Below the pieces are notes generated by a model that did not search any database, was not told the DNA's origin, and saw only the letters and a program-made list of their open reading frames with translations. Both the position numbers and the translations under genes were made by a program. A stretch of DNA of 36,307 nucleotides from Rickettsiales bacterium (lineage in GTDB: Bacteria > Pseudomonadota > Alphaproteobacteria > Rickettsiales > UBA3002), in contig JBILFK010000001.1 in the NCBI GenBank assembly GCA_044351685.1, forward strand, positions 1-36,307, given 5' to 3'. Of this stretch, positions 1 through 26,112 are shown piece by piece. How positions within the stretch are numbered: the first letter of the stretch is position 1; every line of letters starts with the position of its first letter.

Positions 1-52
1 AAATTTTAAGAAAGCTTTGTTAACTTTACACTAGGTAAGACTAGGGTTAACA

Positions 53-562
53 ATGCGCGCTATGGCAAAAAAATCACTACTGAAGAACTCCGAGGGCGCC
101 GCCGCTTTGGAATTTGCACTGGTATTCCCGGTGATGATTTTCTTTGTGATGGCCATTATCGAATTTGGCCTGATTATGCATGTCAACACGCTGGTCGATA
201 ATGCTACGCACGAAGGCGCACGCTTAGGCACCACCGGCAACACCTATGCTGACCTCAACGCCACCGGCTTAGAGCGCAAAGAATTTATCGATAGTTATAT
301 TCGCGATCAATTAGGTAACTGGGTGCGCAGTAGCGACCAGTTAAACGTGACCACCAAAATTATCGGCGCCAACATTGGTGCTGTGGGAAATAACTTAACC
401 ACGGTGGGGCATCAGGGATTTGGTAGTGGCGGCGAGGCCGTTGTCTATAATGTGCAATATAAGTGGCAAATTCTTACACCGATTATGGCCAATATCATTG
501 GCGAAGATGGCAATTTTCTTATGACCGCTACTGCTGTCGTGAAGAACGAAAATTTCAAATAG
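53..562 (+). CDS. TadE-like Flp/Tad pilus pseudopilin (minor pilin)
   Basis: 169-aa ORF. The N-terminal 'EGAAALEFALVFPVMIFFVMAIIEFG' hydrophobic segment followed by 'NATHEGARLG' is the classic TadE-like N-terminal domain. It sits beside further Tad-type genes. Confidence 0.8.
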   Translation: MRAMAKKSLLKNSEGAAALEFALVFPVMIFFVMAIIEFGLIMHVNTLVDNATHEGARLGTTGNTYADLNATGLERKEFIDSYIRDQLGNWVRSSDQLNVTTKIIGANIGAVGNNLTTVGHQGFGSGGEAVVYNVQYKWQILTPIMANIIGEDGNFLMTATAVVKNENFK

Positions 563-578
563 GCATATACCAACAGAG

Positions 579-1157
579 ATGACACAGAAAAAGCAGAGGA
601 TATTAGAACGATTCTACCGTGACGAAGGCGGTGTCGCCTTCCTTGAATTCGTGTTTATGCTGCCGGTATTTATTATCATTTTTTATGGGCTTATTGAAGT
701 ATCGCGACTCATTCAAATGCACCAAAAAATGGGAAATGCTGCGCATTCTGTCACCAATCTTATCAACCAGAATTTTAACATCAGCAATGCGCTGATTAAC
801 GAATATGCCAGCACACTTCCCGCGATGGTTTCGCCGTTCGATTCCGAAGGGGTGGGCATGATAGTCACTGCGATTGAAGTGCCGCTTACTGCCACGCAAC
901 CCATCACGGCGTGGCAACGCCAATCAGGCGTGGTGCGCGCCAGTCGCGTATCGGGCGGACAAGGCGCAGTGCCGACGCTGCCTTCGCTAGCGCTGGTGCC
1001 AGGAGATCAGGTGATTGCGGTGGAGATTTTCCTCGACTACCGCCCCATATTGGATAATGATACAGTGCGAACGATGCTAGGAATCTCGCCTGAAGGAGTG
1101 TATAAAGTAAGCATTGCACGGCCGCGCTTTGGCGCATTTAATTTACCACCAGCCTAA
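579..1157 (+). CDS. TadE/TadF-like Flp/Tad pilus pseudopilin
   Basis: 192-aa ORF with a second copy of the TadE-like N-terminus ('GGVAFLEFVFMLPVFIIIFYGLIEVSRL'). Same strand, 16 nt after the previous gene. Confidence 0.75.
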   Translation: MTQKKQRILERFYRDEGGVAFLEFVFMLPVFIIIFYGLIEVSRLIQMHQKMGNAAHSVTNLINQNFNISNALINEYASTLPAMVSPFDSEGVGMIVTAIEVPLTATQPITAWQRQSGVVRASRVSGGQGAVPTLPSLALVPGDQVIAVEIFLDYRPILDNDTVRTMLGISPEGVYKVSIARPRFGAFNLPPA

Positions 1158-1189
1158 ACGACCACCATTTAGAGAAGTGAAGGTGTGAC

Positions 1190-1933
<744 letters not shown>

Positions 1934-1981
1934 GAAAATATAGTGATGCGTGCGTGTAATATCGTTTTAGGGGAGATTCCT

Positions 1982-2962
1982 GTGAACCAGATGAAATGGC
2001 GTAATCGCGTAGCAGGTGCCGTGCTATGCCTCAGCACCGTGTTTGCTTTGACCATGTTACCGCATGCAACCTATGCAGCCACACTGAACAGCGATGCTGG
2101 CTTTGATGTGGCCGTGTTCATGCAGAACGATATCAACGTCAACGCCGATGGCGGTGGTGGCGGCGGTGTTGGTGGCGGCGGCGGTGGTGGTGGCGGTGTA
2201 CCACCCGTACCGCCTCCTGTTGGGCCGGTGTGCCAACCTGCGCAAATTCCTGCCGTTGTTGGCACCATCGATGCTGCCATTGCTGCGATGAACAATCTGG
2301 CACGCAATAGTGGCCAATTAAACGCCACCAAAGCCGCGCTCGATGCCGTGAGTGCAGTGAACAGTGAAGCGAACACCAGTGGCGGCATGCGCCAGCTGCA
2401 AGATGCGTTGCAGTTAGAATATGATTATCTACGAACCCTGAGAACCATCACCGTGCAGGAAGCTTACTGCGCACCTGCGGGAACCATGGTAACCACCTAC
2501 CCGCGCGAAGGCTGCATTCTTTCTGGCACGCCCATCACGCTTGCTGATGGCACCACCAAACCCATTGAAGCTCTGAACCTGAACGATGAGGTAAAGGGCT
2601 ATCTGGGGCCGGTGAAAATTATCGCGCTCAACAAATTCACCCAGCGCGAAGACTTCATGTACAGCATCAATGGTGGTGAAGCCTTCTTCACGGTAGAACA
2701 CCCGATTCTGACGCCGAAGGGCTGGAAATCGATCGATTCAACAATCACTTCCGTGAAAAGCGATATTAAAATTATCGGCACACTTAAAGTGGGCGATACC
2801 GTGCTGACGGCCGACCGCAAGGAAGTGGTAGTGAAATCGATTGATAAACACAAAATTTCCAAAGGTGTCGATGCGTACAACATCTCCACCGAAGGCGATG
2901 GCAGCTTTGTTGCCAATGGCTACATTATGAAGGGCTTCAAAAACGTGCAGATGCATTATTAG
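1982..2962 (+). CDS. Secreted protein with poly-Gly/Pro linker and C-terminal Hint (Hedgehog/intein-like, BIL-type) autoprocessing domain
   Basis: The ORF is open from 1943. GTG 1982 lies 6 nt after a GGGGAG Shine-Dalgarno; ATG 1991 is an alternative start. Signal peptide 'MKWRNRVAGAVLCLSTVFALTMLPHATYA'. Hint blocks: 'G|CILSGTPITLADGTTKPIEALNLNDEV' (Cys codon 2513-2515), 'FFTVEHPILT', 'LKVGDTVLT' and 'GSFVANGYIM'. Confidence 0.7.
   Translation: MNQMKWRNRVAGAVLCLSTVFALTMLPHATYAATLNSDAGFDVAVFMQNDINVNADGGGGGGVGGGGGGGGGVPPVPPPVGPVCQPAQIPAVVGTIDAAIAAMNNLARNSGQLNATKAALDAVSAVNSEANTSGGMRQLQDALQLEYDYLRTLRTITVQEAYCAPAGTMVTTYPREGCILSGTPITLADGTTKPIEALNLNDEVKGYLGPVKIIALNKFTQREDFMYSINGGEAFFTVEHPILTPKGWKSIDSTITSVKSDIKIIGTLKVGDTVLTADRKEVVVKSIDKHKISKGVDAYNISTEGDGSFVANGYIMKGFKNVQMHY
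2150..2197 (+). repeat. (GGN)n tract encoding G6-V-G9, followed by a Pro-rich linker
   Basis: GGT/GGC codon run interrupted by one GTT, directly after the signal peptide region of the Hint-domain protein. 'VPPVPPPVGPV' follows. Confidence 0.9.
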
Positions 2963-2987
2963 GCAGCACATGATCAGGAGAACAGCT

Positions 2988-4394
2988 ATGAAACCTATGC
3001 ACCATATGATCCGTACGCTGATTGCTGATACGCGGGGAAGTATCCTGATTGTGGGGGGTTTCTCGGTTATGACCCTCACTACGCTGGCCGCGGGTGCTAC
3101 CGAATTCGCCAATTTCGTGAACCGCAAAAACATGATTGAAAATGCCGCCGATAGCGCGCTGCTTGCTGCGGCAACCGTGTCGCGCTCGCAGGATATCAAC
3201 GCGGTGGTCACCAAGTTTTTCAATGCCAATATTCCGGATGAATACAAAGATTCAATTGAGCTGGGCGCCATCACGGTGACCACCAACCCCGATACGCTCG
3301 AATGGTCGGCCACCATTGATGCTAAAATTAAAACCAAACTCGCAAAATTCATTGGCTTTGATAATTTTAACATGCGGCACAAAGTTTCTGTGGCTTGGGA
3401 TATTTCCAAGCGCTTAGAGACGGTGTTTTTGGTCGATAGCTCGGCCTCGATGTGCACGAATACCGTGCGTTCAGAAAAAGAAGATGGCGCGTTCGTGCTA
3501 AAATATGAACCCGACTTTACCTGCAAAAAACTCACCGCCATGAAGCGTGCGATGAGCTACGTGATTGATAATGGCCTCTCGAGCATTCAGGGGCTTGGTG
3601 GGCCAGCATTCTATGCAGGTATTATACCCTTTAACCACAAGGTGCGCCTGCCGAATCTCGATTCAGCACCGGAAGCATTGATTGGCAGCGAAAAGAACCT
3701 GACTGCTGAAAAAACCGGCCTCGATAAAAACAAATTCAGCACGGGGGATGCTAACTACTTCACCGATTTCACCGACGCCGAACCACTCTCGCCAGTGATT
3801 CCGCTAAAATCATTGAATACGGACGCCGATAAACAGGAACTGAAGGCGTTGATCAATGGCATTAACCAAAGCCCGGTTGGCCGTGGCTGGACACGCTCGA
3901 ACATTGCCGCCCTAACGTCTGCGCTGATGTTGGATCCGGATAATTATGCCGCATTCGGCGGCGAGAAGCCGAATGCGTTTGAGCCCGGTAAAACCGATAA
4001 AATCGTCATCATGATGACCGATGGCGCCAATATCGGTTGCTGCTATGCCGCACACCCGGAAGGCAATTACGATAATCAGTATTTGTATCTCTACGAAGTT
4101 GATAACGCGCACATGGTGGGGCTTGAAAACATGCCGGAACTGGCACGTTATCAGCAAAAATATAATATCCCGCAAAAAGGTCTCTGCTCAGAAATGAAAG
4201 AGCAAGGCATCACCATTTACTCCGTGGTGTATGATGTGGATGACCGTGACCCGGGCGGCAGAGCGATTAAAAATGTGTATGAGCAATGCGCATCGAGCGA
4301 GCAGCATTATTTCGATGTGCACGATGAAGAGCAGTTGCAGCTGGCGTATAAAACCATTGCACAATCGCTACTGCGTCTGCGTATCACCTACTAA
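2988..4394 (+). CDS. TadG-like pilus assembly protein with von Willebrand factor A domain
   Basis: The ORF is open from 2970. ATG 2988 is preceded by AGGAG at 7-nt spacing. N-terminus 'TRGSILIVGGFSVMTLTTLAAGATEFANF...ENAADSALLAAA' is the TadE/G-like pilus-assembly N-terminal motif. vWA MIDAS 'VFLVDSSASM' and 'KIVIMMTDGAN'. Confidence 0.8.
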   Translation: MKPMHHMIRTLIADTRGSILIVGGFSVMTLTTLAAGATEFANFVNRKNMIENAADSALLAAATVSRSQDINAVVTKFFNANIPDEYKDSIELGAITVTTNPDTLEWSATIDAKIKTKLAKFIGFDNFNMRHKVSVAWDISKRLETVFLVDSSASMCTNTVRSEKEDGAFVLKYEPDFTCKKLTAMKRAMSYVIDNGLSSIQGLGGPAFYAGIIPFNHKVRLPNLDSAPEALIGSEKNLTAEKTGLDKNKFSTGDANYFTDFTDAEPLSPVIPLKSLNTDADKQELKALINGINQSPVGRGWTRSNIAALTSALMLDPDNYAAFGGEKPNAFEPGKTDKIVIMMTDGANIGCCYAAHPEGNYDNQYLYLYEVDNAHMVGLENMPELARYQQKYNIPQKGLCSEMKEQGITIYSVVYDVDDRDPGGRAIKNVYEQCASSEQHYFDVHDEEQLQLAYKTIAQSLLRLRITY

Positions 4395-4462
4395 CCCGTT
4401 ACTTCAAAGTCCTTCGGCTACGCCTCAGTGTACTTTGAAGCAGATCAACGAATCGGGTGGCA

Positions 4463-4520
4463 CGAGTCTGCCTAGAGCCAGCGAAGCGTCGCGAAAGCCA
4501 GCACGGTGCCTGCTCGGCCG
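4463..4520 (-). repeat. Dispersed intergenic repeat, core module (copy 1, inverted)
   Basis: The reverse complement 'cggccgagcaggcaccgtgctggctttcgcgacgcttcgctggctctaggcagactcg' matches the cores at 16266 and 21054. Hand count against 21054..21111: 11 mismatches in 58 nt. It lies between the convergent tadG-like and rodA genes. Confidence 0.8.
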
Positions 4521-4527
4521 GGGCACA

Positions 4528-5652
4528 TTAAAACTTTGGCAGGTTCAGTTCGCGGTTCATATAGACATGCATCAGCAGTCCGCACGCCGCAAGCGTGGCA
4601 ATCATGAACGAGCCACCATAGGAAAGAAACGGTAACGGCACCCCCACCACGGGAATCATGCCCATGACCATCGCCATATTAATGAAGATGTGCACAAACA
4701 GCATGGCCGCCACCCCCACCGCAATCATGCGGCCAAAGGCGTGGCGCGTGCGCACCGCAAGCATGATGGCAAACCACAGCACCGCGCCATACAATACCAG
4801 CAATATCAGTGCGCCAAAAAACCCGAGCTCTTCGGCAAGCATCGTGAAAATAAAATCGGTTTGTTTTTCGGGTAGAAAATCGAGCTGCCCCTGCGAACCA
4901 TTGAGCAGGCCTTTGCCAAAAAATCCGCCCGAACCAATAGCGATTTTCGATTGAATAATGTTATACCCCGCCCCCAGCGGATCGCTCGCGGGGTCGAGAA
5001 ATGTCATTACGCGTTTTTGTTGGTAGGGGTGCAAAAACTGGTAAATAATCGGCACGGCTGCAAGCGCCGCCGTGATGGTTCCGGCGAAATACCACCAGTG
5101 AATACCCGCCATAAAACACATAATATACGCGACCATCGCCAGAATGGTTGCCGTGCCCAGATTTGGTTGTAGCAAAATCAGCACCGCCGGAATTGCCAGC
5201 AGCACAATGGGCACCATCAGCACCAGCAAATGCCGTGTGCCATCGAGTGTGGCGCTGTGAAAATATCGCGCCAGCGCGATAATTAGGCCAAGCTTCATCA
5301 GTTCAGAAGGTTGCAGCGTAATAAACCCGATATTCACCCAGCGCTGTGCGCCACCGCCGATCATTCCCATCGCTTGCACCACCACCAGCAACAGCACGCA
5401 CAGCACATAAAATAGGTAGCTGCTCGCAAGCAGCGTGCGCGTGGGCAGCAAGCTGATGCCAACAAACAGCACCATGCCCACCACCCATTTGGTGGCTTGC
5501 GGAATGGCAAACACAAACGGGTCGCCGCCTGAAGCAGAATATTGCATCACCATGCCATACGCTGAAAGCAGCAGCACCAGTAGTAAAAACCCGCCATGCA
5601 TATCTTGTAGGCGCCGCTGCAGGCGTTTCCATTTATGTGAAGCAAAAATCAT
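4528..5652 (-). CDS. rodA: Rod shape-determining SEDS-family peptidoglycan polymerase RodA
   Basis: 374-aa polytopic membrane protein with an FtsW/RodA/SpoVE-type sequence ('SELMKLGLIIALARYF', 'DFIFTMLAEELGFFG', 'PLPFLSYGGS'). ATGA overlap with the upstream PBP2 gene. Confidence 0.92.
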   Translation of the reverse strand: MIFASHKWKRLQRRLQDMHGGFLLLVLLLSAYGMVMQYSASGGDPFVFAIPQATKWVVGMVLFVGISLLPTRTLLASSYLFYVLCVLLLVVVQAMGMIGGGAQRWVNIGFITLQPSELMKLGLIIALARYFHSATLDGTRHLLVLMVPIVLLAIPAVLILLQPNLGTATILAMVAYIMCFMAGIHWWYFAGTITAALAAVPIIYQFLHPYQQKRVMTFLDPASDPLGAGYNIIQSKIAIGSGGFFGKGLLNGSQGQLDFLPEKQTDFIFTMLAEELGFFGALILLVLYGAVLWFAIMLAVRTRHAFGRMIAVGVAAMLFVHIFINMAMVMGMIPVVGVPLPFLSYGGSFMIATLAACGLLMHVYMNRELNLPKF

Positions 5653-8958: not shown

Positions 8959-11191
<2,233 letters not shown>

Positions 11192-11195
<4 letters not shown>

Positions 11196-12562
11196 CGCGT
11201 CACTCCGGTATCGTGGGCGGCGGCAAGCTCTTTCGGGTAAGCTGGCTGCACACTCGCTTTTTGCCGTATGATGGCGGGAGCGAAGGTGCTGGTTTGCCCC
11301 ATGTAAATCGTGGCATCGCCCGCCAATGCATCCACACCCGCATGGCGCTGTTTGGCATTGGTGATAATCGGTGCATCACGAAACCCGGAGCCAAACGCCC
11401 CACGCAACCCAGTTTCCTCTAGCACCTGTTCGCTAACCGGTGGAATGTTATTCTTTGGGTTGCCAAACATCAACCGATCGTAAAAGCGTTGCACCACGGT
11501 TTCATCCATCGATGGGATACCGGTTAGCGATCGATGCGGTTGCAGCATCATGCCGTTTTCTACCCGCATATCATGATCATGAATGTTATAGGCCAAGGCA
11601 AATTTGGCGGCATCGGTAATAGCGGCAATGTCTTCGGGCTTAAAGGGATCATCCTTGCGTAACGCCTCCAGATACCCACGCACCGCATCGCGCATATGCG
11701 CATCGCGGCCTTCATTGGATTTTTCAAACGCCGCCTGCTCGGCGCGTGCCAACACGTGATTCACGTTGATCGTGTTCCAGTGCGGTGTGAGCAGTTCAAG
11801 AATGTTCGAGCTATAGACATGCCCCACCGCAAATGGCTTGCTGGCCGATGGTGGTTGATAGCTGGCAATCGCATCGTGCAGTGTTTTGCAATCTTTGGCA
11901 TTCGTGATATCGACCAGCACAGCCGCCATACGGCCTGAAGTGGCAAGCTGATGCAAATGCGCATAGCCTTGCAGCTCACCATCTTCGCCGCGCAAGCTTG
12001 GGCATTCCTGCGTGAAATCATCAAAATTCATCTGCGCCAATATGCCGGGTTTTTCAACATATTTTTTACCGTTAAAATCCCAGCCCAGATTGGTCGGCCA
12101 CTCTGGATTCAGATACTGATTGCGCACCGTCTTGGTTTCAAACGCGCGCTTCAATGCTTCGGGCGAATCGAAATCGCGCAGCATGGCAATGAAACCTTTG
12201 TAGTTTCCCTCGCCTTTCCAGAAGGCAATCTGGTTCGGATTGATATCGATGAACACGCAGGCATCGGCGCGGCTGCGCACCGCCATATCGAGGTTGAAAA
12301 ATCCGGCAGCGCCCACATGCACATGCTGCGCATCGCGCGTTTCCGGGCGCACATAACTATCGGCGACATGTTCTAAAATGGCTTTGCGGCTACGCGATTC
12401 GCGCACCGGAAAGGTGTGAATGTAATGCGGCTTCACATCATACGGGCCGAACTGGCACTGCATATCGAGATATGCCTGCAACTCGCCCGGGTGCGCTTCG
12501 CTGGGTTTATCGGGCTTTTTGCCCCACCCCAAAATAATACGGTTTTTCGGAAACATCCCCAT
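11192..12562 (-). CDS. Hypothetical protein, possibly Rossmann/SAM-dependent-transferase fold
   Basis: 456-aa ORF. 'HVHVGAAGFFNLDMA...ACVFIDINPNQ' and 'VGHVYSSNILELL' loosely resemble class-I methyltransferase-fold motifs I/II and a late motif. No family recognised with certainty. A second ATG lies at 12556. Confidence 0.5.
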
Positions 12563-14762: not shown

Positions 14763-14975
14763 GGTAGCCCCCTTGCGCGGATGCGCGGGTTAATAAATTG
14801 ATTTTCCATGACTTAACACGCCGCAAAAATGGCGCAACCCCTATCACCGCGCAATCGTCACACAAATATCATAAAATTTTATCTAATTATCTGTATGATG
14901 GAAATTGGAGTGAACTACGCCCTTCGTGTGCCTGCGCGCCTGCGCATGCCATGGGGGTGTGAACAAAGGAGAAGC

Positions 14976-16250
14976 ATGGTACACAGGCCACAGAGTCTTT
15001 GGGATACCATCGAGGATGTGTTTACCACCACCGACGACGAGCGCGTGGAGACCGCCCGCGCACGCGTTGAGCGCGAGATGTTTTCGACCCCCGAGGCACT
15101 GGCATGGGCACAAAGCCAGGGGCTGAATGTGGCCGCGCAGCAGCGTGGGCCAGAAGGGCTGCGTAACGAAGCCAGCCGCGATTCGGTGCTGTATAGCATG
15201 ATCAATAATTTCTATAGCTGTCACGATAACCTTGAAACCATCCGCAGCCGCTACCGCGAACAAGGCTTCGATAATGGCACCACCACCAAAACCTATTTCT
15301 TCAATATGGGGCCGGGCACACTTGGGCGCGGCGCAAGCAACCATGAAGCCGCCATGGTGGTCGATGAAAGCCAGAACCCGCCCATTATCACGCTCAATTT
15401 CCGTGGCAGTAATTTAAGCGGCTCGCCTTCCGCGTGGCGCGAGGGAGCCGCAGGCAATAATATTTTCAGCAAGATATTTGATATGGGCATGTACCTGTTT
15501 ACCGGGCGCATGGGCAATACACCGATTCCCGAATGGTTAAGCCACCTGAAAGGCTTCATGAGCTACCTAACCGGGCAGGAAGTGCAAAGCTACGATGTAC
15601 AAAGCGAAGCCTTCTGGCGCGATGCCGGACCAGATATCCAGCGTATCATGCAAGAAGTATCTGCGCGCCACCCCGGTGTGGCACCGCAAATTATTATTGC
15701 CGGGCATTCGTATGGGGTCGATGGTGCCACGCGCATGGTACCCCACCTTGCCGAAGCCTTCCCGCAGTGGCGCGAGAATATTTCGCTGGTCGGGTTTGGT
15801 GGTGTGCCGAGCTTTAGTGCGACCGAACAAGAACGTATTTACGGCCTGCTTGGCAATAACCCCGAGCGCGCTCGCCAATATGGCAATCAGGGCGATTGGA
15901 TCGATCCGGTAGCGTTTGTGCAGCAATATATTCCGATTTTTAATCTGCAATCGATGCTCGGCACCACCGGGTCGGTGGGCGAACGCCGCGTGATGATTGG
16001 CGGTAACGGCCATGATTATACGGTGTCATCGCAGATGCATGCGATGATCGAAAGCATCGAGCGCGATATCGCGCGCGACCCAGCCAATGCCGATGCCCGC
16101 GCCCGCGCCATTATCGATAATTACCGCCGCGATCCAAGTTCCGCGCTTAGCCAGCTGGCGCAATATGCCACCGGTAACACGGGCGGTAGCACACCACCGA
16201 ATGTTGCGCCGCGTGGCAGCGAGCGCGGGGCAGTGCCGGTTCCGGCCTAG
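14976..16250 (+). CDS. Alpha/beta-hydrolase (lipase-like) fold orphan protein
   Basis: The ORF is open from 14829. ATG 14976 follows AAGGAG at about 4-nt spacing. A nucleophile-elbow-like 'IIIAGHSYGVDGA' (G-H-S-x-G) is present. There is no signal peptide, and the C-terminus is Ala/Arg/Pro-rich and looks disordered. Confidence 0.45.
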   Translation: MVHRPQSLWDTIEDVFTTTDDERVETARARVEREMFSTPEALAWAQSQGLNVAAQQRGPEGLRNEASRDSVLYSMINNFYSCHDNLETIRSRYREQGFDNGTTTKTYFFNMGPGTLGRGASNHEAAMVVDESQNPPIITLNFRGSNLSGSPSAWREGAAGNNIFSKIFDMGMYLFTGRMGNTPIPEWLSHLKGFMSYLTGQEVQSYDVQSEAFWRDAGPDIQRIMQEVSARHPGVAPQIIIAGHSYGVDGATRMVPHLAEAFPQWRENISLVGFGGVPSFSATEQERIYGLLGNNPERARQYGNQGDWIDPVAFVQQYIPIFNLQSMLGTTGSVGERRVMIGGNGHDYTVSSQMHAMIESIERDIARDPANADARARAIIDNYRRDPSSALSQLAQYATGNTGGSTPPNVAPRGSERGAVPVPA

Positions 16251-18031: not shown

Positions 18032-20020
18032 ATGCGTATGACAGTATTTTCAGCAGCACCAACGGCAACCTCACCCGCTCCGGCAGCTCCGGCTCCGGTT
18101 GCACCAGCAGCAGCGGCTCCAGCCCCTGCGGCAGCATCCGTCATTACTATCGGCGGGCAACAGGTGAATCTTGCGAATTTAAGCGTGGAAGATGGGCTTG
18201 CCATCTACCAAATGCTGACGCCAGAGCAAAAACGTCAGGCCGATACCATCGCTGGGTTCGTGCAAAACCACGAACGTACGCTCAATGTTGATATTCCTCA
18301 GAACCTGACACTCGAAAACGCGTATTCACAATATATGGCAGCATTGCGTACCGGTGGTGGCCAGCTTACCGACACCGCAGAGGGCTGGATGCGGCAGATG
18401 GATGCCGCTGTCGGCAATCAGGTACGCGGACAAATGCGTGAACAAATTCCTGGCTATGCTGCTGCAGAAACCGCTGGAAATACCGTTTCTTTCCTTGCCA
18501 ATGCAGGAAGCGCAGCTGTTGAAACGTTTTTCATGGTGCCGTTGTGGAGCCGTGGGCCTGGAGTCATCAGCAATCTGTTTTCTGAAGGTGCAGGGGCAAT
18601 CGGTCAAGGTGCAAGCCCCGAGCAAGCACATGCCTTTGCTGCTGCCTATGTGGCTGCACAAGCCGATGCTGATCGCCAGAATGCGGCCCCGAACGCTTCA
18701 CCTACCCAGCAAGCTCCAAGCTGGATAGATTCTGGCGTGGCGTGGGTGCAAGCTGCCTTCACCTGGTTGATGCATACCGTGCCGTTCATTCCACAAGTGT
18801 TCGAATGGATTGGCAGCGGCTTTGGCAGCTGGGCAGAAGCAGGCAACCGCGTGCATGAAAAACAAGCGCAAGAGCTGCGCGATTTAGGTGGCAACCTGGA
18901 TATTGGTAGCATGCAGCAACGTATTTTAAGCCGCAACGTGACACAGAGCACCGCCGAACGCACACGCCACACCGCAAGTGATATTTTAACCGCTGCTGGC
19001 CGTGTCGCTGATCTTGATGCAGCACCGATTGCAGGCTTGCTTGCCAATGGTGGTTTCTATCAGCGCCAAGATGGTACTCGTGCACGCGTGCGCCCCTTCA
19101 ATGGCACCGCGCTTCAAGAAGAAGTGCTGATGAACCCACAAACCGGTGAGCCAATCACCCGCCTGGATCGTGCGGGGAATGATGTTAGCTCGCTTATTCC
19201 TGGTAACGCTGATGGCGGTAGCTTTGATTTGACAAGCACTGCTGTGGGCACGGTTGCTGGTGGCGCGCTTGCTGCAAAATATCGCGTTCCTCAGCGTGTT
19301 GGTGGATTCATTAACAACAGAATTATTAGCCCGGTGACGGGTCTGGTTGGTCGTGAAGCAACAACGATTCGCACGGCGGCAAATGAAACCGCAGCACTCA
19401 GTCGCGCGGGCTATCTTGGGTTTGCTGGACAAGCGGCATCACCGCTGCTGCGTCGTGCAGGCTACGTGGGCGTAGCGATTGGTGCCGTAGGCGATGCCGT
19501 GTCAGTTGGCGATTCGGCCATCCATGGTGATGGTGCCGGTGTCGCAGTTCACGGCTCCGAGCTGGTAGGCACAGCTGCGGGCGGAGTAGGTGGTGCTATC
19601 GGTGGTGGTTCTGTAGGCGGATGGATTGGTGCTGGAGTAGGCACGGTTATTAGTGGCGTTGTCGGTTTCTTCTCGGGTGGAACGGGATTAGTTGCAGCAC
19701 CTGCCATTATTTCCGCTAGTACGGCCATCGGAACTGTTGCCGGTAGCGTTGCTGGTGGCTGGTTCGGTGCCGATGCAGGCCGGAACGTTGCGGGTGGCAC
19801 CGCGCGCGCACTAGTGGGAGAATCCGCAGTCGATGCGCGTAACAGAGAACAAGCTGATGCATCGGCACGCGTCGAAGCCGCCCGCGATCAGGCGAATGGT
19901 GCCACCGGCGGCTTCCGTTGGCCGTGGGAATCGGCAAGTGCCGATGCACCAGTAGACCCACGCGCTGTTGGTGCAGCAGCACCTGCACGTGGTACACCAA
20001 CCTTACTCGCCGCTGTCTAA
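18032..20020 (+). CDS. Orphan protein with Ala/Pro-rich N-terminus and C-terminal glycine-zipper membrane region
   Basis: 662-aa ORF. ATG 18038 has better spacing to the AAGAG Shine-Dalgarno than 18032. The N-terminus is 'APTATSPAPAAPAPVAPAAAAPAPAAA'. The C-terminal ~130 aa carry GxxxG/AxxxG repeats ('GGVGGAIGGGSVGGWIGAGVGTVISGVVGFFSGGTGLVAAPAIISASTAIGTVAGSVAGGWFG'). No Sec signal. Confidence 0.7.
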   Translation: MRMTVFSAAPTATSPAPAAPAPVAPAAAAPAPAAASVITIGGQQVNLANLSVEDGLAIYQMLTPEQKRQADTIAGFVQNHERTLNVDIPQNLTLENAYSQYMAALRTGGGQLTDTAEGWMRQMDAAVGNQVRGQMREQIPGYAAAETAGNTVSFLANAGSAAVETFFMVPLWSRGPGVISNLFSEGAGAIGQGASPEQAHAFAAAYVAAQADADRQNAAPNASPTQQAPSWIDSGVAWVQAAFTWLMHTVPFIPQVFEWIGSGFGSWAEAGNRVHEKQAQELRDLGGNLDIGSMQQRILSRNVTQSTAERTRHTASDILTAAGRVADLDAAPIAGLLANGGFYQRQDGTRARVRPFNGTALQEEVLMNPQTGEPITRLDRAGNDVSSLIPGNADGGSFDLTSTAVGTVAGGALAAKYRVPQRVGGFINNRIISPVTGLVGREATTIRTAANETAALSRAGYLGFAGQAASPLLRRAGYVGVAIGAVGDAVSVGDSAIHGDGAGVAVHGSELVGTAAGGVGGAIGGGSVGGWIGAGVGTVISGVVGFFSGGTGLVAAPAIISASTAIGTVAGSVAGGWFGADAGRNVAGGTARALVGESAVDARNREQADASARVEAARDQANGATGGFRWPWESASADAPVDPRAVGAAAPARGTPTLLAAV

Positions 20021-20098: not shown

Positions 20099-21040
20099 GT
20101 GCGAGATGAACCCATGTCCGCTGCCATCAAATACCCTGACGCTTCCGAACCGGCTGAAACCTTCACCACCAAACGCGCCACCGTGCCCGCCATTGAGGCC
20201 TTGCTTGGCGAAGCCATCCCTGTGCTCGATCATGGGTTTGTGCGTGTGGTCGATTATATGGGCGATGATAGCGCGATTGTGCAGGCTGCGCGCGTTTCGT
20301 ATGGCAAAGGCACCAAGCAGGTGAATCAGGATAAAGGCCTGATTAACTACCTGATGCGCCACTGGCACAGCACGCCGTTTGAAATGTGCGAAATGAAATT
20401 CCATGTGAAATTGCCGATGTTCGTGGCGCGGCAATGGATTCGCCACCGCACCGCTAACGTGAACGAATATTCGGCGCGCTATTCAATTCTAGATAAAGAA
20501 TTTTATGTGCCCAAGCTCGAACATTTAAGCCCACAATCGAAGCAGAACCATCAGGGTCGTAGCGAAGAAAGCCTAAGCGAGCAAGAAGCACAGCATGCGT
20601 TGCATCTGCTGAAATCCGATGCGCTACAAACCTATGCGCATTACGAAGAACTTATGAACTGCGACCGCGACGGCAATGTGCTAGATGAAAGCAAACAAGG
20701 CCTGGCGCGCGAACTGGCGCGCATGAACCTTACCATGAATTATTATACGCAGTGGTATTGGAAAATTGATCTGCATAACCTGATGCATTTTTTAATGCTG
20801 CGTGCTGACGCGCATGCGCAATATGAAATTCGCGCTTACGCCGATGTGATGATTGATATCATGAAGCAATGGGTGCCGTTTGCGCACGAAGCCTTCGAGG
20901 AACATCGCCAGCACGGCACGCGCCTTTCGCGCAGTGGTTTGGCGGTAGTGAAGCGCATGATCGCTGGCGAAAAAGTGACGCAAGAAACCAGCGGCCTCAC
21001 CAAACGCGAGTGGGAAGAGCTGCAAGCTTCGCTTGCATAA
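20099..21040 (+). CDS. thyX: FAD-dependent thymidylate synthase ThyX
   Basis: 313 aa (GTG 20099; alternative ATG 20114). ThyX signature '[15 protein letters not shown]' (RHRxxSxxxxSxRY-type) and '[24 protein letters not shown]'. Confidence 0.9.
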
Positions 21041-21049
21041 TTCTTTTTT
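21022..21049 (+). terminator. Possible terminator overlapping the thyX stop
   Basis: GCAAGC-ttc-GCTTGC followed by ATAATTCTTTTTT. The stem is short, but there is a 6-T run. Confidence 0.4.
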
Positions 21050-21053
21050 GCTG

Positions 21054-21227
21054 CGGCCGAACACATACTGTGCTGGCCTCCGCGTAGCTTCGCTAGCTCT
21101 TGGCAGACTCGCTTCTACTGAAGCTCGAATAACGAATGTTCTTGTGATGCGAGCGCAGTAGCGCGAGCCAGTCATGAACATGCGAAGCATCGCCTCATAG
21201 CGATTTCAGTAGAAATCGCTGGAGGCA
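21054..21227 (+). repeat. Dispersed intergenic repeat (copy 3, longest: core + right arm + terminal hairpin)
   Basis: Core 21054..21111. The right arm 21112..21192 is matched in inverted orientation at 23221..23296. Terminal hairpin GCCTC-at-AGCGATTT-cagtag-AAATCGCT-g-GAGGC lies at about 21193..21227. It sits between the convergent thyX and msrB genes. Confidence 0.85.
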
Positions 21228-21233
21228 TTAAAA

Positions 21234-21797
21234 TTACTTCTTATCGAACAGATGGCTGTAATCTTCGTAGCCCTCATCGGCCAGTTTTTCCTTCGGCACA
21301 AATTTCAGCGCCGCCGAATTGATGCAATAGCGCATGCCGCCTTTTTCTTTGGGGCCATCGTTGAACACATGGCCTAAATGCGAATCGCTGCTTTTGCTGC
21401 GCACTTCGGTGCGCTCCATGCCGTAGCTGCGATCGGTTTTATCGACAACTTCTTGCGCATCGATCGGCTTGGTAAAGCTGGGCCAGCCCGAGCCGGAATC
21501 AAACTTGTCGGTGGAAGCGAATAGCGGCTTGCCCGAATGCGCATCGACATAAATACCATCGGCTTTGTTATCCCAGTATTTGTTGCGGAATGCGGGTTCG
21601 GTGCCATTCTCTTTGGTGACGTAGTGGGTCATATCATCGGTGGGGGCGTGTTTGAAAATAGCCATAGATTCCTCACTGTTCGTTTTAGGGGTTGGTTCGG
21701 CGAATGCTTCCGATTGCTGCAAGGCAACGCTCGCCATGCCAACAGAAAGCGTGGTGGCAAAAACAAAAATGAAGCCGGTAAAGAAAGGCGAATGCAT
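21234..21797 (-). CDS. msrB: Peptide-methionine (R)-S-oxide reductase MsrB with N-terminal export signal
   Basis: 187 aa with SelR/MsrB motifs 'GSGWPSF', '[10 protein letters not shown]' and 'RYCINS'. The N-terminal '[29 protein letters not shown]' looks like a signal peptide. The ATG at 21797 has GGAGG at 5-nt spacing. An internal ATG (Met45) with a weaker Shine-Dalgarno would give a cytoplasmic-size protein. Confidence 0.85.
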
Positions 21798-21854
21798 GAT
21801 AACCTCCGTGTTACCAACTAATTCGTTGCCGAGGGCATAATAGTTACATAGCGT

Positions 21855-23180
21855 GTGCTAGAAATGCACGCAACCAACCACTATCATATACTGCACACGC
21901 TTCCCGCCCTTGAGGCATGGGAGATGCCGCCCTTGCTGGAACAGCAGGCACGGCAACTGGTAGAATCGGGCAGGCTGCGCATTAATGCCGATTATGAGCG
22001 CAACTTTGTACGCCATGTCAGCGGCGAAACCGATTTATGTTTCACCGAGCGCGAACTGACCGACCCGATTTTATTGCTGCGCACCAAAACCGCGCTTGCC
22101 AAATCGGTGCCGCGCGGCATGGGGCCGATGGCCGTGAACAGCCTGATTGCCGATTTGCTGAAGGAAATGAAAAAGGCCCGCGGCATCGACCCTGAGCGCG
22201 AAATGCGCATTGCCCGCCTGATGGTGCAGGCCACCCACCCCGCCGTAATTGCCACCTTACTGCGCGAAAGCACCGAGCTATTTGTTTCGTATAGTCACAA
22301 TGTCAGCGATTTAATGGCGCTGCATTTCTGGCAAACGCATGGCACCGCCAGCGGCATGCAAACCAGCTGCGATAATGGCTCGGCGGTGTATGTTTCCTGC
22401 GGCGGTGATCCGTTTTTTGAGGGCGACCCTAAAAACAAAACCTACACCACCGATGGCTTTCCCTCACTCGCGCGGCTGATGATTATTGCCGGGCAGGAAC
22501 TGGGGCACTATGCCGATTTGCGGCGCGAGCCGAATGTAGGGATTGTGGGCCGCTTCTCGGCACATCTGGATAGGTTACGCCCTACTGAACCTTATAAGCG
22601 CGCGCGTGACCGCGATATCGCCCGCGTGCAGGCCTTCCACCATATGCTGGCCAAACGCGGCTTTGCGGCATTGCTGAAAGCCGAGCACGGCGTGGCGTTT
22701 TTTAGTAAGCGCCTGAAATACACCCCACCCTGGATGCTGGCGCAGCTCTGGCGCTTTGCCTGCTGGCTGAGTTTTACCGTGCGCACGATTGCGCTGCCCC
22801 TACCACCGTACACTCACACCACGCCGTACCTTCGCTGCGGCGAATATTACCACACACTGCTTGCCGATATGGCATTCAACCTTGCCCCCGAAGCCGATGC
22901 CTACCGCCGCAGCAACCCGGTGCATGAAGAAGCTATCGCCTGTATCGAAGCGCTCGCCCGCGTGCCGCAGCAGGTGCATAAATGGGGACATGAAGTGACC
23001 GCGCTTTGCATGGCTGACTTATATAAATTGTATTATGGGGAAGTGATTCCCGCGCTGGAAAGTGGCTTATCCGCCAATTTGCGCAAGCAACTACCCACCG
23101 CACATCGGCTGCCATTGCATCGGTTGATGTTCAAATACGTGCGCCAAAGCTTCCGCAAGCGCCCCGATTATTTGAGGTAA
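21855..23180 (+). CDS. Hypothetical protein (orphan)
   Basis: 441-aa ORF (GTG 21855 or ATG 21864) with coding-like composition. No signal peptide and no recognisable domain. Confidence 0.55.
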
Positions 23181-25845: not shown

Positions 25846-26097
25846 ACATTCCCCCTTTTCATTTTCGCGCAGCGTGCTATACTTTGTCTGTTCCTAATGT
25901 ATAGGCGGTGCGGCAAGGTAAGCAGCATCAAAGTTCACATGTAGGCTGCGTGTGTTACGTAAACACCCGCGCACACGGCTTTTGCAGCACACGAAGTGAA
26001 GCAAAATCCACGCACGTAGCATCGGTTGAACATGACGTTCGATTTTTATTTAAGGTTCGATGATTCGTTGAAGCTTGCCACCATGTGGCGGGGGCGT

Positions 26098-26112
26098 TGG
26101 CATTTGTTTGGC
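26098..26112 (+). promoter_or_regulatory. Sigma54-type (-24/-12) promoter candidate for the flagellin gene
   Basis: TGGCAT-TTGTT-TGGC has GG and GC at the canonical 10-nt separation (consensus TGGCAC-N5-TTGC). It ends 31 nt upstream of the preferred ATG at 26144. Confidence 0.35.

What the first reader, a model, noticed from the sequence alone, without database searches (positions are those of the whole stretch)
1943..2962. Hedgehog/intein-type (Hint/BIL) self-processing domain on a secreted protein wedged inside the Tad pseudopilin gene block
Seen: the ORF has its own Shine-Dalgarno and a Sec signal peptide. A G6-V-G9 tract and a VPPVPPPVGPV linker follow, then a ~95-aa Ala/Leu/Asn-rich segment. 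At Gly190|Cys191 (TGC 2513-2515) it reads 'CILSGTPITLADGTTKPIEALNLNDEV', followed by 'FFTVEHPILTPKGW' (T-x-x-H block), 'LKVGDTVLT' and 'DAYNISTEGDGSFVANGYIMKG'. Established: this block order defines Hint domains of inteins, Hedgehog C-terminal domains and bacterial intein-like (BIL) domains, and Hedgehog also cleaves at Gly|Cys. The terminal His-Asn and a +1 nucleophile are missing, and only ~10 residues follow. Splicing is therefore unlikely. Inference: the chemistry allows N-terminal cleavage, or transfer of the ~145-aa upstream cargo onto a nucleophile. This gene is not part of the canonical tad layout as I know it. Its position between the TadE-like and TadG-like genes suggests a self-cleaving, pilus- or surface-associated cargo.
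Basis: partly seen in the sequence, partly recalled or inferred. Interest (0 to 1): 0.75.

Follow-up and report, generated by a model that had tools for sequence, protein, structure and literature searches.

The report
Self-cleaving Hint protein in Tad pilus-tip cassette
A secreted protein ending in a Hedgehog/intein-type self-processing (Hint) domain is a conserved fourth gene of a Tad minor-pilin "tip" cassette (TadE-TadF-X-TadG) in uncultured Rickettsiales-like alphaproteobacteria; in this genome the gene has been split into two secreted halves, and no such Hint-pilus link turned up in the literature I could search.

Summary
ORF 1943-2962 encodes a signal peptide, a G6-V-G9 tract, a Pro-rich linker, a roughly 95-aa helical segment and a 141-aa Hint domain starting at Cys191 (TGC 2513-2515). 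It ends in an 8-aa tail.

A family profile matches the solved Tetrahymena BUBL BIL2 domain end to end (E 6e-12). The AlphaFold model (Hint part pLDDT 77-96) gives BIL2, a Clostridium BIL domain, mini-inteins and Hedgehog as top Foldseek hits. Cys1 and the T-x-x-H block are invariant. The intein His-Asn/+1 nucleophile is replaced by Lys-Gly/Phe, so only the N-terminal acyl shift and cleavage, or transfer, is chemically possible.

1. In 15 of 15 related loci the gene sits next to a TadG-like VWA gene. TadE-TadE pairs are present wherever enough flank exists, with one exception. It is therefore a conserved member of a stand-alone Tad tip cassette.
2. The window gene is only half of the family protein. 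The upstream ORF 1190-1933 is the family's Cys-rich N-terminal domain. The split is conserved in a second genome, and both halves are under purifying selection.

Cleavage itself is untested. I rate this a new variant of a known kind, with moderately high interest.

The parts
53..562 (+). TadE-like minor pilin (169 aa); N-terminus SEG|AAALEFALVFPV is of prepilin type
   Evidence: Pfam TadE E 3.7e-16. It is conserved upstream of the Hint gene in 10 loci. dN/dS against L001 is 0.09.
579..1157 (+). Second TadE/TadF-like minor pilin (192 aa)
   Evidence: Pfam TadE E 8.6e-10, with a weak TadF hit. It is conserved in 10 loci.
1190..1933 (+). ORF1 (247 aa): the split-off, Sec-exported, Cys-rich N-terminal domain of the family. 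Signal peptide 1190-1255 (AWA|VS). Motifs WPQAPLACLPDRAERW 1262-1309, CHCPPPEFCP 1334-1363 and RCCDHICPDG 1685-1714. C-terminal helix, then a Gly14 tract at 1883-1924. TAG at 1931-1933.
   Evidence: 33% identity to residues 35-259 of the single-chain homologue P0009, E 6e-34. Seven invariant Cys residues. phmmer finds only 34 cluster representatives among 1.84 billion, and 30 of the 33 real ones carry the C-terminal Hint. No Pfam or NCBIfam hit. AF2 pLDDT 65 with no Foldseek match. dN/dS 0.11.
1934..2149 (+). Segment specific to the split genes, lying between two Gly-codon tracts. It holds the intergenic spacer, SD-like sites (AGGA 1932-1935, AGGGGAG 1969-1975), candidate starts (GTG 1943, ATG 1946, GTG 1982), the signal peptide (to Ala45, nt 2077) and about 24 aa of mature N-terminus.
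   Evidence: It is absent from the 16 single-chain homologues in alignment A1 and present in L001. The flanking Gly-codon tracts are detected as direct repeats.
1943..2962 (+). ORF2, the finding: a secreted Hint-domain protein of 339 codons counted from GTG 1943
2150..2230 (+). G6-V-G9 tract (2150-2197) and Pro-rich linker VPPVPPPVGPV (2198-2230)
   Evidence: Read directly from the sequence. AF2 pLDDT is below 50, so the segment is predicted disordered.
2231..2512 (+). Cis cargo or stalk: Cys97, three predicted helices (residues 99-121, 126-143, 148-164), the family-invariant Cys176 (2468-2470), and the invariant R188-E189-G190 at the -3 to -1 positions
   Evidence: AF2 helices with pLDDT 69-88. 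C176, R188, E189 and G190 are invariant in A1. dN/dS 0.24.
2513..2935 (+). Hint domain, Cys191-Gly331. Block A is CILSGTPITLADG. Block B is T250-V-E-H253 (2690-2701). The F-like block is AYNISTEGDGSFVANG (2873-2920). The degenerate G block YIMKG has Lys330-Gly331 in place of His-Asn.
   Evidence: Profile against PDB: BIL2 5.7e-12, PI-SceI 2e-5, RecA mini-intein and the Clostridium BIL domain also matched. AF2 pLDDT 77-96 by 10-residue block, with Foldseek BIL2 at 1.3e-12, 2lwy at 1.6e-8 and Hedgehog 1at0 at 5e-5. Pfam Hint-clan hits in 18 of 18 members. dN/dS 0.09.
2936..2962 (+). Conserved 8-aa C-terminal tail FKNVQMHY plus the stop codon. Phe occupies the +1 position, so there is no nucleophile.
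   Evidence: F332, Q336, H338 and Y339 are invariant in 18 members. The tail pattern F-x-x-[VM]-[QE]-[IM]-x-Y is kept in 29 of 30 Hint-bearing representatives.
2970..4394 (+). TadG-like large minor pilin with a VWA domain. N-terminal hydrophobic Tad segment. MIDAS-type DSSAS at 3435-3449.
   Evidence: Pfam VWA 8.5e-5 and Tad 3.2e-3. Adjacent to or near a Hint gene in 15 of 15 loci at 31-84% identity. dN/dS 0.08.

Best explanation
The five genes at 53-4394 form one operon. It encodes a stand-alone Tad minor-pilin 'tip' cassette: TadE, a TadE/F-like protein and TadG-VWA, plus a family-specific non-pilin accessory protein.

In most relatives this accessory is a single Sec-exported precursor. It consists of a signal peptide, a Cys-rich N-terminal domain, a helical stalk and a C-terminal Hint domain. 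In this genome and one relative it has undergone fission into two translationally adjacent, separately exported proteins: ORF1 (the N-domain) and ORF2 (stalk plus Hint).

Proposed mechanism:
1. After export, the Hint domain catalyses an N-to-S acyl shift at Gly190-Cys191, assisted by Thr250 and His253.
2. The resulting thioester is resolved by water or by another nucleophile.
3. This releases the upstream polypeptide from the Hint domain. The released part is the stalk here, and N-domain plus stalk in the fused forms.
4. There is no splicing and no C-terminal cleavage, because the His-Asn/+1 nucleophile apparatus is absent.

The released, rapidly diverging part is proposed to act with, or on, the TadE/TadF/TadG tip complex. 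Precedents are non-pilin proteins that ride on minor pilins, such as TcpF on TcpB.

Shown: the Hint fold and its homology, conservation of the step-1 catalytic residues, loss of the step-3 residues, obligatory synteny with the Tad minor pilins, the gene fission, and purifying selection on both halves.

Inferred: export, actual cleavage, the operon structure, and any physical link to the pilus.
For: Hint identity:
- The family profile matches BIL2 at E 5.7e-12 over 144 of 154 positions, and also matches PI-SceI, RecA mini-inteins and the Clostridium BIL domain.
- The AF2 Hint region has pLDDT 77-96 by 10-residue block. The top 30 Foldseek PDB hits are all Hint domains, and BIL2 has TM 0.76-0.80.
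- All 18 close members hit Pfam Hom_end_hint and Vint.

Catalytic inventory:
- Cys1 is invariant in all 30 Hint-bearing representatives.
- T250 and H253 are invariant in the 18 close members. His is kept in the divergent members as [ST]-x-[DE]-H.
- BIL2's penultimate His aligns with Lys330 and its Asn143 with Gly331.

Context:
- Hint and TadG genes are adjacent or near in 15 of 15 loci.
- TadE-TadE pairs occur in all loci with enough flank except L013.
- There are one to three Hint paralogues per cassette, and two tandem cassettes in L002 and L008.
- No other gene family is shared by more than four of the loci.

Operon:
- Intergenic gaps are 16, 32, 9 and 7 nt.
- The scan found no convincing internal terminator.

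Fission:
- ORF1 corresponds to the N-terminal 225 aa of the fused homologues.
- The same split occurs in L001 at 73% and 64% identity.
- dN/dS is 0.11 for ORF1 and 0.20 for ORF2.

Precedents:
- TadE/F/G form heterotrimeric pilus tip complexes, encoded by several stand-alone cassettes per genome, and the minor pilin TcpB docks the soluble factor TcpF (PMC12075869).
- B-type BIL domains lack the intein C-terminal motif yet cleave at their N-terminus (PMC7765530).
Against: - No biochemical evidence exists for cleavage or for a pilus association.
- The window protein alone does not reach any Pfam gathering score.
- The invariant Asn313 sits where canonical inteins have the F-block Asp. That alignment to Ssp DnaB is by eye and from memory. 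The substitution might slow or alter step 1.
- No core tad machinery genes (CpaC/E/F, TadB/C, Flp) lie within about 10 kb in any locus examined. That these organisms make Tad pili at all was therefore not shown.
- In the split form the conserved N-domain is no longer a Hint substrate. This fits poorly with a simple 'release the N-domain' function unless the two halves reassemble.
- Signal peptides were judged by eye, because no predictor was available.
Confidence: 0.6

Rival explanations
1. Covalent loading. The Hint thioester is not hydrolysed. It is attacked by a specific nucleophile, such as a Lys, Cys or N-terminal amine of TadG, TadE or ORF1, or a lipid, peptidoglycan or host-surface group. 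The cargo would then be permanently ligated by an ATP-independent reaction outside the cytoplasm. This resembles cholesterol transfer by Hedgehog or isopeptide conjugation of ubl4 by BIL2.
For: - The closest solved relative, BIL2, conjugates its N-terminal ubiquitin-like domain to Lys side chains of other proteins (PMC8616854).
- The 8-residue tail (F332, Q336, H338, Y339) is strictly conserved and has no role in plain hydrolysis.
- R-E-G at positions -3 to -1 is invariant.
- Co-inheritance with TadG-VWA is obligatory.
Against: - No acceptor has been identified.
- There is no sterol-recognition-like region, only 8 residues after the domain.
- BIL2 retains the terminal Asn, which this family lacks.
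- Hydrolysis is the default fate of a Hint thioester.
Confidence: 0.15
2. Non-catalytic Hint. The domain has lost autoprocessing and serves as a constant docking or scaffold module, for example binding TadG or the tip complex, that carries variable N-terminal regions.
For: - The C-terminal catalytic residues are lost.
- Asn replaces the F-block Asp.
- The Hint domain is the most conserved part of the protein (58-82% identity against 28-35% for the N-region), as expected for an interaction module.
- Sub-threshold similarity to the non-catalytic AXH module.
Against: - Cys1 is invariant in all 30 Hint-bearing representatives, and T-x-x-H is retained. This is hard to explain without catalysis.
- The -1 residue is small (Gly or Ser) in most members.
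Confidence: 0.15
3. Polymorphic effector. The variable N-terminal region is a secreted toxin or effector exported through a Tad/T2SS-like pseudopilus built from TadE/F/G. The Hint domain acts only as a release or maturation module, as PT-HINT does in polymorphic toxins.
For: - There are several paralogues per cassette with fast-evolving N-terminal and stalk regions and a constant Hint.
- BIL domains typically sit in hypervariable secreted proteins (PMC7765530).
- T2SS and TcpB-type minor pilins load soluble cargo (PMC12075869).
Against: - The architecture is the reverse of PT-HINT, because nothing follows the Hint.
- There is no PF07591 hit in any member.
- No immunity-like small ORF is conserved next to the genes.
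- The N-domain has no toxin-family or structural match.
Confidence: 0.08
4. Artefact or decay. ORF2 is a pseudogene fragment, a degenerate intein remnant, or the product of an assembly or frameshift error in a poly-G tract.
For: - ORF1 and ORF2 are in the same frame, separated by a single TAG.
- They are flanked by slippage-prone Gly-codon repeats.
Against: - The same split, with its own SD and signal peptide, exists in an independent metagenome at only 64-73% identity, and there the two ORFs are in different frames.
- dN/dS is 0.11 and 0.20.
- There is no host protein and no homing endonuclease.
Confidence: 0.02

Closest known systems
BIL2 domain of the Tetrahymena thermophila BUBL1 polyubiquitin-like locus (PDB 6tmm, 6y75)
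   Same: It is the best sequence-profile hit (E 5.7e-12, near full length) and the best structural hit (Foldseek 1.3e-12, TM 0.76-0.80). It shares the Gly|Cys junction, the T-V-x-H block B and the F-A-N-G motif. Its thioester chemistry is used to transfer the N-terminal cargo (PMC8616854).
   Different: BIL2 is eukaryotic and cytoplasmic, is flanked by ubiquitin-like domains on both sides, and keeps the penultimate His and terminal Asn143. The window domain is bacterial, Sec-exported and C-terminal, has Lys-Gly at those positions, and carries a conserved 8-aa tail.
Bacterial intein-like (BIL) domains, types A and B (Amitai et al. 2003, as summarised in PMC7765530); Clostridium thermocellum BIL, PDB 2lwy
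   Same: These are Hint domains in non-conserved, hypervariable, often secreted bacterial proteins. They autocleave rather than splice. Type B lacks the intein C-terminal motif yet cleaves at its N-terminus. 2lwy is the second-best structural match (1.6e-8).
   Different: No family member hits the Pfam PT-HINT model. Only 5 of 18 give sub-threshold Hint_2 hits. The family has its own C-terminal signature (K-G-F-x-x-x-Q-M-H-Y), its own N-terminal domain and a fixed Tad gene neighbourhood, none of which I found described for BILs.
Hedgehog C-terminal autoprocessing (Hog/Hint) domain (PDB 1at0)
   Same: A secreted precursor with an N-terminal cargo and a C-terminal Hint. It has a Gly|Cys scissile bond and a T-x-x-H block, undergoes N-terminal cleavage only, and can transfer the cargo to a nucleophile. 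Foldseek E 5e-5.
   Different: The window protein has no sterol-recognition region after the Hint. The similarity is much weaker than to BIL domains and inteins. The window protein is bacterial.
TadE/TadF/TadG minor-pilin tip cassettes (Myxococcus KilLMN Tip1-4; PMC12075869) and non-pilin tip passengers (TcpF on TcpB)
   Same: Stand-alone cassettes of two small minor pilins and one large one, away from the machinery genes and sometimes in several copies per genome. The large TadG-like subunit carries a modular C-terminal domain, here VWA.
   Different: The passages of that paper I read describe Tip cassettes of three pilin genes and mention no Hint-domain gene. Here a non-pilin Hint protein, in one to three copies, is a constant additional member.
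Other bacterial secreted 'Cys-containing N-terminus + C-terminal Hint' proteins (Burglin 2008, PMC2362128; P0019-P0025)
   Same: They share the overall plan of a signal peptide, a Cys-rich N-terminal part, a C-terminal Hint and a short tail.
   Different: Those proteins keep V-H-N or V-H-D at the Hint end. They have unrelated N-terminal domains, and I know of no Tad context for them.

Membership tests
Hint superfamily (Hedgehog/intein fold) | Hint fold (compact all-beta horseshoe) | tested here: met
   The AF2 model of residues 191-331 has pLDDT 77-96 by 10-residue block and is all beta. The top 30 Foldseek PDB hits are Hint domains, with TM up to 0.80.
Hint superfamily (Hedgehog/intein fold) | Block A with an N-terminal Cys/Ser nucleophile, and block B T-x-x-H | tested here: met
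   Cys191 is invariant in 30 of 30 Hint-bearing representatives. T250 and H253 are invariant in 18 close members. They align to the T and catalytic H69 of BIL2 (PMC8616854).
Hint superfamily (Hedgehog/intein fold) | Significant profile similarity to known members | tested here: met
   Family profile against PDB gives 5.7e-12. All 18 members hit Pfam Hom_end_hint and Vint, best 7e-9. The window protein alone is below the gathering scores.
Intein (protein-splicing element) | Penultimate His and terminal Asn/Gln (block G) | tested here: not met
   Lys330-Gly331 align with BIL2's penultimate His and its Asn143 (Ala in the crystallised mutant). Across the family the pair is K/H/R/Q followed by G/S/A/P.
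Intein (protein-splicing element) | C-extein starting with Cys/Ser/Thr, and insertion in a host protein | tested here: not met
   The +1 residue is Phe332, and only 8 residues follow before the stop. There is no host protein and no endonuclease domain.
Hedgehog/Hog domain | Sterol-recognition region C-terminal to the Hint module | tested here: not met
   Only an 8-aa tail follows the Hint module. Pfam Hint (PF01079) scores E 0.17.
A-type BIL / PT-HINT (PF07591) | Match to the family model; conserved C-terminal His-Asn | tested here: not met
   No PF07591 hit at E<=0.01 in any of 18 members. His-Asn is absent.
Hint_2 (PF13403) / B-type BIL | Match to the family model; intein motifs present except the C-terminal one; N-terminal autocleavage | tested here: inconclusive
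   5 of 18 members give sub-threshold hits, best 1.9e-5, and the window protein scores 0.041. The motif pattern fits the description in PMC7765530. Cleavage cannot be tested with these tools.
Vint (PF14623) of VWA-Vwaint-Vint proteins | Match to the model; VWA and Vwaint domains upstream in the same polypeptide | tested here: not met
   Only model positions 1-71 of 166 match, at 22.3 bits against a cut-off of 27. The solved Vint structure 8r2c ranks only 21st. The VWA domain is in the neighbouring gene, not in cis.
Tad pseudopilin / minor pilin (TadE/TadF/TadG) | N-terminal TadE/Tad hydrophobic prepilin-like segment | tested here: not met
   Neither ORF1 nor ORF2 hits PF07811 or PF13400. Their N-termini look like Sec signal peptides with an A-x-A-type site. 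They are therefore accessory proteins, not pilins.
Tad minor-pilin tip cassette (gene-neighbourhood membership) | Conserved co-location with tadE, tadF and tadG-like genes | tested here: met
   15 of 15 loci have TadG. Ten of the 14 related loci clustered have both TadE genes, as does the window itself. The other four are truncated at the Hint gene (L007, L011, L012) or lack them (L013).
Autoprocessing activity (functional membership) | Cys1-dependent N-terminal cleavage | not testable with these tools
   This needs expression of wild type against C191A and H253A, followed by SDS-PAGE and MS.

The most novel reading that the evidence does not exclude
The Hint domain acts as a one-shot, ATP-independent ligase working outside the cytoplasm. 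Its thioester would be attacked by a residue of the TadG/TadE/TadF tip complex, by the split-off ORF1 domain, or by a host-cell surface group. The variable cargo would then be covalently welded to the Tad pilus tip or to the target. This would be a bacterial, extracytoplasmic counterpart of BIL2-mediated ubiquitin-like conjugation and of Hedgehog cholesteroylation. The conserved F-x-x-x-Q-M-H-Y tail would serve as the acceptor-recruiting element.
Probability: 0.15. Interest if true: 0.85.

Novelty: new variant of a known kind. Interest (0 to 1): 0.62.

Why it matters
How Tad pili acquire tip-specific functions is a current open question. TadE/F/G tip complexes were only recently shown to be modular and exchangeable.

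A Hint autoprocessing protein that is an obligate member of such cassettes would add post-translational self-cleavage, or possibly covalent transfer, to the known ways of building or arming a type IV filament tip. It would also give the Hint superfamily a new, well-defined bacterial context with a clear genetic partner set.

The family is small: about 30 clusters at 50% identity among 1.84 billion representatives. It is restricted to uncultured Rickettsiales-like alphaproteobacteria, many of which are probably host-associated, so the cargo may mediate host contact.

The natural gene fission provides a ready-made experiment on which part of the precursor the Hint domain really needs. The claim can be tested directly with recombinant protein.

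Tried and rejected
- Pfam and NCBIfam on ORF1 gave no hit.
- The AF2 model of ORF1 reached only pLDDT 65, and Foldseek against PDB returned nothing with E below 1.9. The N-domain fold remains unknown.
- The weak Foldseek hit of the ORF2 stalk to a four-helix-bundle pectin methylesterase inhibitor (E 0.14) was judged not significant.
- Literature searches for 'bacterial intein-like'+TadE, 'Hint domain'+'Tad pilus' and 'intein-like'+'minor pilin' each returned zero papers.
- The genome-contig scan did not retrieve the window's own genome. Host taxonomy therefore rests on relatives' record titles and on a DUF2748 gene.
- The archaeal and other hits of that scan (L014-L031) are ordinary inteins or unrelated Hint proteins and were set aside.
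- The promoter and terminator scan of 1-4700 found fewer sites than its shuffled controls and was uninformative.
- The composition profile shows no island-like anomaly.
- Stop-codon read-through of TAG 1931-1933 was considered because ORF1 and ORF2 are in frame. It was rejected as a conserved mechanism, because in L001 the two ORFs are in different frames with two stops between them.
- The pseudogene reading was rejected on dN/dS.
- The PT-HINT polymorphic-toxin reading was rejected on architecture and on the absence of PF07591 hits.
Full report
**1. Observation**

ORF 1943-2962 (+) exists as described. Numbering below is from GTG 1943.
- A positively charged stretch (K18-R22) is followed by a 17-residue hydrophobic core (V23-L39) and P-H-A-T-Y-A|A. 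This is a Sec-type signal peptide judged by eye, with predicted cleavage after Ala45.
- G6-V-G9 is residues 70-85 (2150-2197).
- VPPVPPPVGPV is residues 86-96.
- An Ala/Leu/Asn-rich segment follows, which AlphaFold models as three helices (99-121, 126-143, 148-164; pLDDT 69-88).
- The R-E-G|C junction follows, with Cys191 at TGC 2513-2515.
- After the last Hint strand (ANGYIMKG, ending at Gly331) only FKNVQMHY follows.

The start codon is ambiguous. GTG 1943 and ATG 1946 are preceded by AGGA. GTG 1982 is preceded by AGGGGAG at 6 nt (AGGAGG in the orthologous locus L001) and gives a conventional signal peptide. The ATG at 1991 is ATA in L001.

**2. Is it a Hint domain?**

Yes.
- The single protein gives only sub-threshold hits: Pfam Vint 1.2e-4, Hom_end_hint 3.8e-3, Hint_2 0.04, Hint 0.17. 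NCBIfam intein_Cterm scores 15.9 bits against a cut-off of 15.6.
- A search of 5.8 billion proteins found 18 close relatives. Their C-terminal 154 residues are 58-82% identical to the window's (A2).
- A profile of that alignment hits solved structures. The Tetrahymena BUBL BIL2 domain (6y75/6tmm) scores E 5.7e-12 over profile positions 3-146. PI-SceI scores 2e-5. The Mtu RecA mini-intein is matched end to end (6-145 against 1-138). The Clostridium thermocellum BIL domain, the Prp8, DnaB and gp41-1 inteins are also hit.
- The AF2 model has pLDDT 77-96 by 10-residue block over residues 191-330. Its top 30 Foldseek PDB hits are all Hint domains: BIL2 1.3e-12 (TM 0.76-0.80), 2lwy 1.6e-8, mini-inteins about 1e-7, and Hedgehog 1at0 5e-5.
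- All 18 members hit Pfam Hom_end_hint and Vint, best 7e-9.

**3. Catalytic inventory**

- Cys191, Thr250 and His253 are invariant in the 18 close members.
- Cys1 is invariant in all 30 Hint-bearing cluster representatives of the wider family.
- In the HMMER alignment to BIL2, T-V-E-H aligns with T-V-N-H. That His is BIL2's catalytic H69 (PMC8616854).
- At the C-terminal end, BIL2's ...A-N-G-V-L-A-H-[N143A] aligns with A-N-G-Y-I-M-K-G. The penultimate His is therefore Lys330, the terminal Asn is Gly331, and the next residue is Phe332.
- Across the family these positions are K/H/R/Q, then G/S/A/P, then F.
- BIL2's F-block His aligns with the invariant Gly320.
- Asn313 is invariant. It lies where, by my own by-eye comparison with Ssp DnaB (sequence from memory), canonical inteins have the F-block Asp.

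The apparatus for the first step (N-to-S acyl shift) is therefore conserved.

The 8-residue tail is itself strongly conserved: F332, Q336, H338 and Y339 are invariant, and the pattern F-x-x-[VM]-[QE]-[IM]-x-Y is found in 29 of 30 representatives. It is unexplained.

**4. The gene is half of a split gene**

- Sixteen of the 18 close relatives are 377-503 aa. They carry, ahead of the helical region, a signal peptide and a Cys-rich domain with the motifs W-x-x-A-P-x-A-C-L-P-x-R-A-x-R-W, P-C-H-C-P-P-x-x-x-C-P and C-C-D-x-x-C-P.
- That domain is the window's upstream ORF 1190-1933: 33% identity to P0009 residues 35-259, E 6e-34, with seven invariant cysteines.
- ORF1 ends in a helix and a Gly14 tract (1883-1924), then TAG.
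- ORF2 begins 9 nt later, in the same frame. After its own signal peptide and about 24 residues, it carries a second Gly tract (2150-2197).
- The two Gly-codon tracts register as direct repeats. They bracket the segment that is absent from the fused homologues.
- Mature ORF1 to about residue 231 plus ORF2 from about residue 97 add up to roughly 450-470 aa, the normal length of a fused homologue. Nothing seems to have been lost.
- The same split exists in an independent metagenome contig (L001: ORF1 73%, ORF2 64% identity). There the two ORFs are in different frames, so read-through is not a conserved feature.
- Nei-Gojobori dN/dS between the two genomes is 0.11 for ORF1 and 0.20 for ORF2 (Hint 0.09, stalk 0.24). 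The flanking TadE and TadG genes give 0.08-0.11. dS is 1.2-1.8, near saturation, so the ratios are approximate.
- The fission is therefore old and both halves are maintained.

An exhaustive phmmer search with ORF1 against 1.84 billion cluster representatives found only 34 hits, one of them spurious. Thirty of the 33 real hits end in the Hint domain. The N-domain has no Pfam or NCBIfam match, a low-confidence AF2 model (pLDDT 65) and no structural neighbour.

**5. Genomic context**

- In the window the order is TadE (53-562; Pfam 3.7e-16), a TadE/F-like gene (579-1157; 8.6e-10), ORF1, ORF2, and a TadG-like gene with a VWA domain and a DSSAS MIDAS motif (2970-4394).
- Gaps between these genes are 16, 32, 9 and 7 nt.
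- Convergent rodA-mrdA-mreD-mreC-mreB genes follow.
- On the 114-kb source contig the genes upstream are an OmpA-family gene and two unannotated genes, not tad machinery.

I examined 14 further loci carrying family members. Five came from protein look-ups, eight from a scan of GTDB representative genomes, and two carry very divergent members (one locus was found by both of the first two routes).
- In every one a TadG-like gene (31-84% identity) lies adjacent to or close to the Hint gene or genes.
- TadE and TadE/F-like genes are present wherever enough flanking sequence is available, except in L013.
- The usual order is TadE-TadE-Hint(1-3 copies)-TadG. Variants are TadE-TadE-TadG-Hint-Hint (L009), Hint-Hint-TadE-TadE-TadG (L032), and a divergently transcribed TadE pair (L010).
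- L002 and L008 carry two complete cassettes in tandem.
- All-against-all clustering of neighbouring ORFs found no other real gene family shared by more than three loci. The only four-locus clusters were antisense ORFs overlapping the TadG and Hint genes.
- The genome-derived loci come from uncultured Alphaproteobacteria, Rickettsiales and Rhodospirillaceae MAGs.
- The window also carries a DUF2748 gene and thyX.

**6. Interpretation**

Recent work shows that TadE, TadF and TadG are minor pilins that form a heterotrimeric tip complex priming the Tad pilus. Genomes can hold several stand-alone tip cassettes with different large subunits. Minor pilins of related systems dock soluble passengers, for example TcpF on TcpB (PMC12075869). 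The cassette here fits that description, with one extra and constant member: a non-pilin, Sec-exported Hint precursor.

The most economical mechanism has three steps.
1. The precursor is exported.
2. The Hint domain catalyses an N-to-S acyl shift at Gly190-Cys191.
3. The thioester is resolved, releasing the upstream polypeptide, which then functions with the tip complex.

The pattern of a highly conserved Hint domain with fast-evolving upstream parts, and one to three paralogues per cassette, resembles BIL-containing hypervariable secreted proteins (PMC7765530). The closest solved relative, BIL2, uses its thioester to conjugate its cargo to lysines of other proteins (PMC8616854). Transfer to an acceptor is therefore a live but unproven alternative. 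The invariant tail and the R-E-G motif might serve it.

The fission is a puzzle for the simple 'release the N-domain' idea. In the split form the N-domain is made separately, while the Hint keeps only the stalk. Either the stalk is the functionally relevant substrate, or the two halves reassemble, for example by the ORF1 C-terminal helix packing with the ORF2 helices. This is speculation and could be tested with AlphaFold-Multimer.

**7. Comparison with known families**

- The domain is a member of the Hint superfamily by fold, motifs and profile statistics.
- It is not an intein: there is no His-Asn, no +1 nucleophile and no host protein.
- It is not a Hog domain, because there is no sterol-recognition region.
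- It is not PT-HINT/A-type BIL, because no model hit was found and His-Asn is absent.
- It is not a Vint protein, because only the N-terminal part of the model matches and there is no VWA domain in cis.
- It behaves on paper like a B-type BIL: intein motifs except the C-terminal one, with N-terminal cleavage expected. Matches to Pfam Hint_2 are only sub-threshold, in 5 of 18 members.
- Other bacterial 'secreted Cys-rich N-terminus + C-terminal Hint' proteins were noted by Burglin (PMC2362128) and appear as distant hits P0019-P0025. Those keep V-H-N or V-H-D and have unrelated N-domains.
- I found no paper linking Hint or BIL domains with Tad or minor pilins. The searchable library is incomplete.

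**8. Verdict**

- The finding is a new, narrowly distributed Hint subfamily with its own N-domain and C-terminal signature.
- It is an obligate member of Tad tip cassettes and is naturally split in this genome.
- Autoprocessing and the pilus association are inferred, not shown.
- Novelty: new variant of a known kind. Interest: 0.62.

Noticed in passing
window 1190-2197: ORF1 and ORF2 are in the same reading frame, separated by a single TAG (1931-1933). Two Gly-codon tracts (1883-1924 and 2150-2197) bracket the inserted stop/SD/signal-peptide segment. An in-register recombination or slippage between them would regenerate a fused, ancestral-type gene.
   Followed up: partly
window 26075-28453 (+), and 23485-25845 (+): A 792-aa 'giant' flagellin (Flagellin_N at 35-165, Flagellin_C at 701-785) has a central region of about 530 aa with no family hit. 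It is preceded by a 786-aa ORF with no Pfam hit.
   Followed up: no
window 28476-32582 (-): A 1368-aa ORF with no Pfam family at E<=1e-5.
   Followed up: no
window 33110-36275 (-): A gene trio: a sugar-transfer-associated ATP-grasp, an inactive transglutaminase fused to 7TM, and a putative Zn protease (PF14397, PF14400/PF14402, PF05618). This is a recurrent but poorly understood gene neighbourhood.
   Followed up: no
window 20099-23180: thyX (Thy1) and a DUF2748 protein (E 2.5e-97), the latter a family I recall as typical of Rickettsiales. Together with the MAG titles of related loci, this suggests a Rickettsiales-like alphaproteobacterial host.
   Followed up: partly
window 2684-2810 (ORF2 residues 248-289) and the family profile: 17 of 18 family members give sub-threshold Pfam AXH (ataxin-1/HBP1) hits. 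The Hint profile hits ataxin-1 AXH structures (1oa8, 4j2j) at E about 6e-4 over profile positions 8-110. This may be a remote AXH-Hint relationship around the E-H-P...G-W-x-S...V-G-D stretch.
   Followed up: no
L003 14465-14779; P0046, P0049: Stand-alone copies of the N-terminal W-P-x-x-P-x-A-C-L-P...C-H-C-P-P motif without a Hint domain. One is a 104-aa ORF just after the third Hint paralogue in L003. The others are two proteins of about 238 aa.
   Followed up: no
L003 5293-6948; L009 233-3168; L013 10621-10995: An unannotated protein family of about 550 aa recurs near the cassette in 3 loci. A sigma-54 activator plus a response regulator recurs in L003 and L009. These may be regulators or further partners.
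   Followed up: no
window 10062-12562 (-) and 14829-16250 (+), 18032-20020 (+): Four sizeable ORFs (377, 456, 473 and 662 aa) have no Pfam hit at 1e-5.
   Followed up: no
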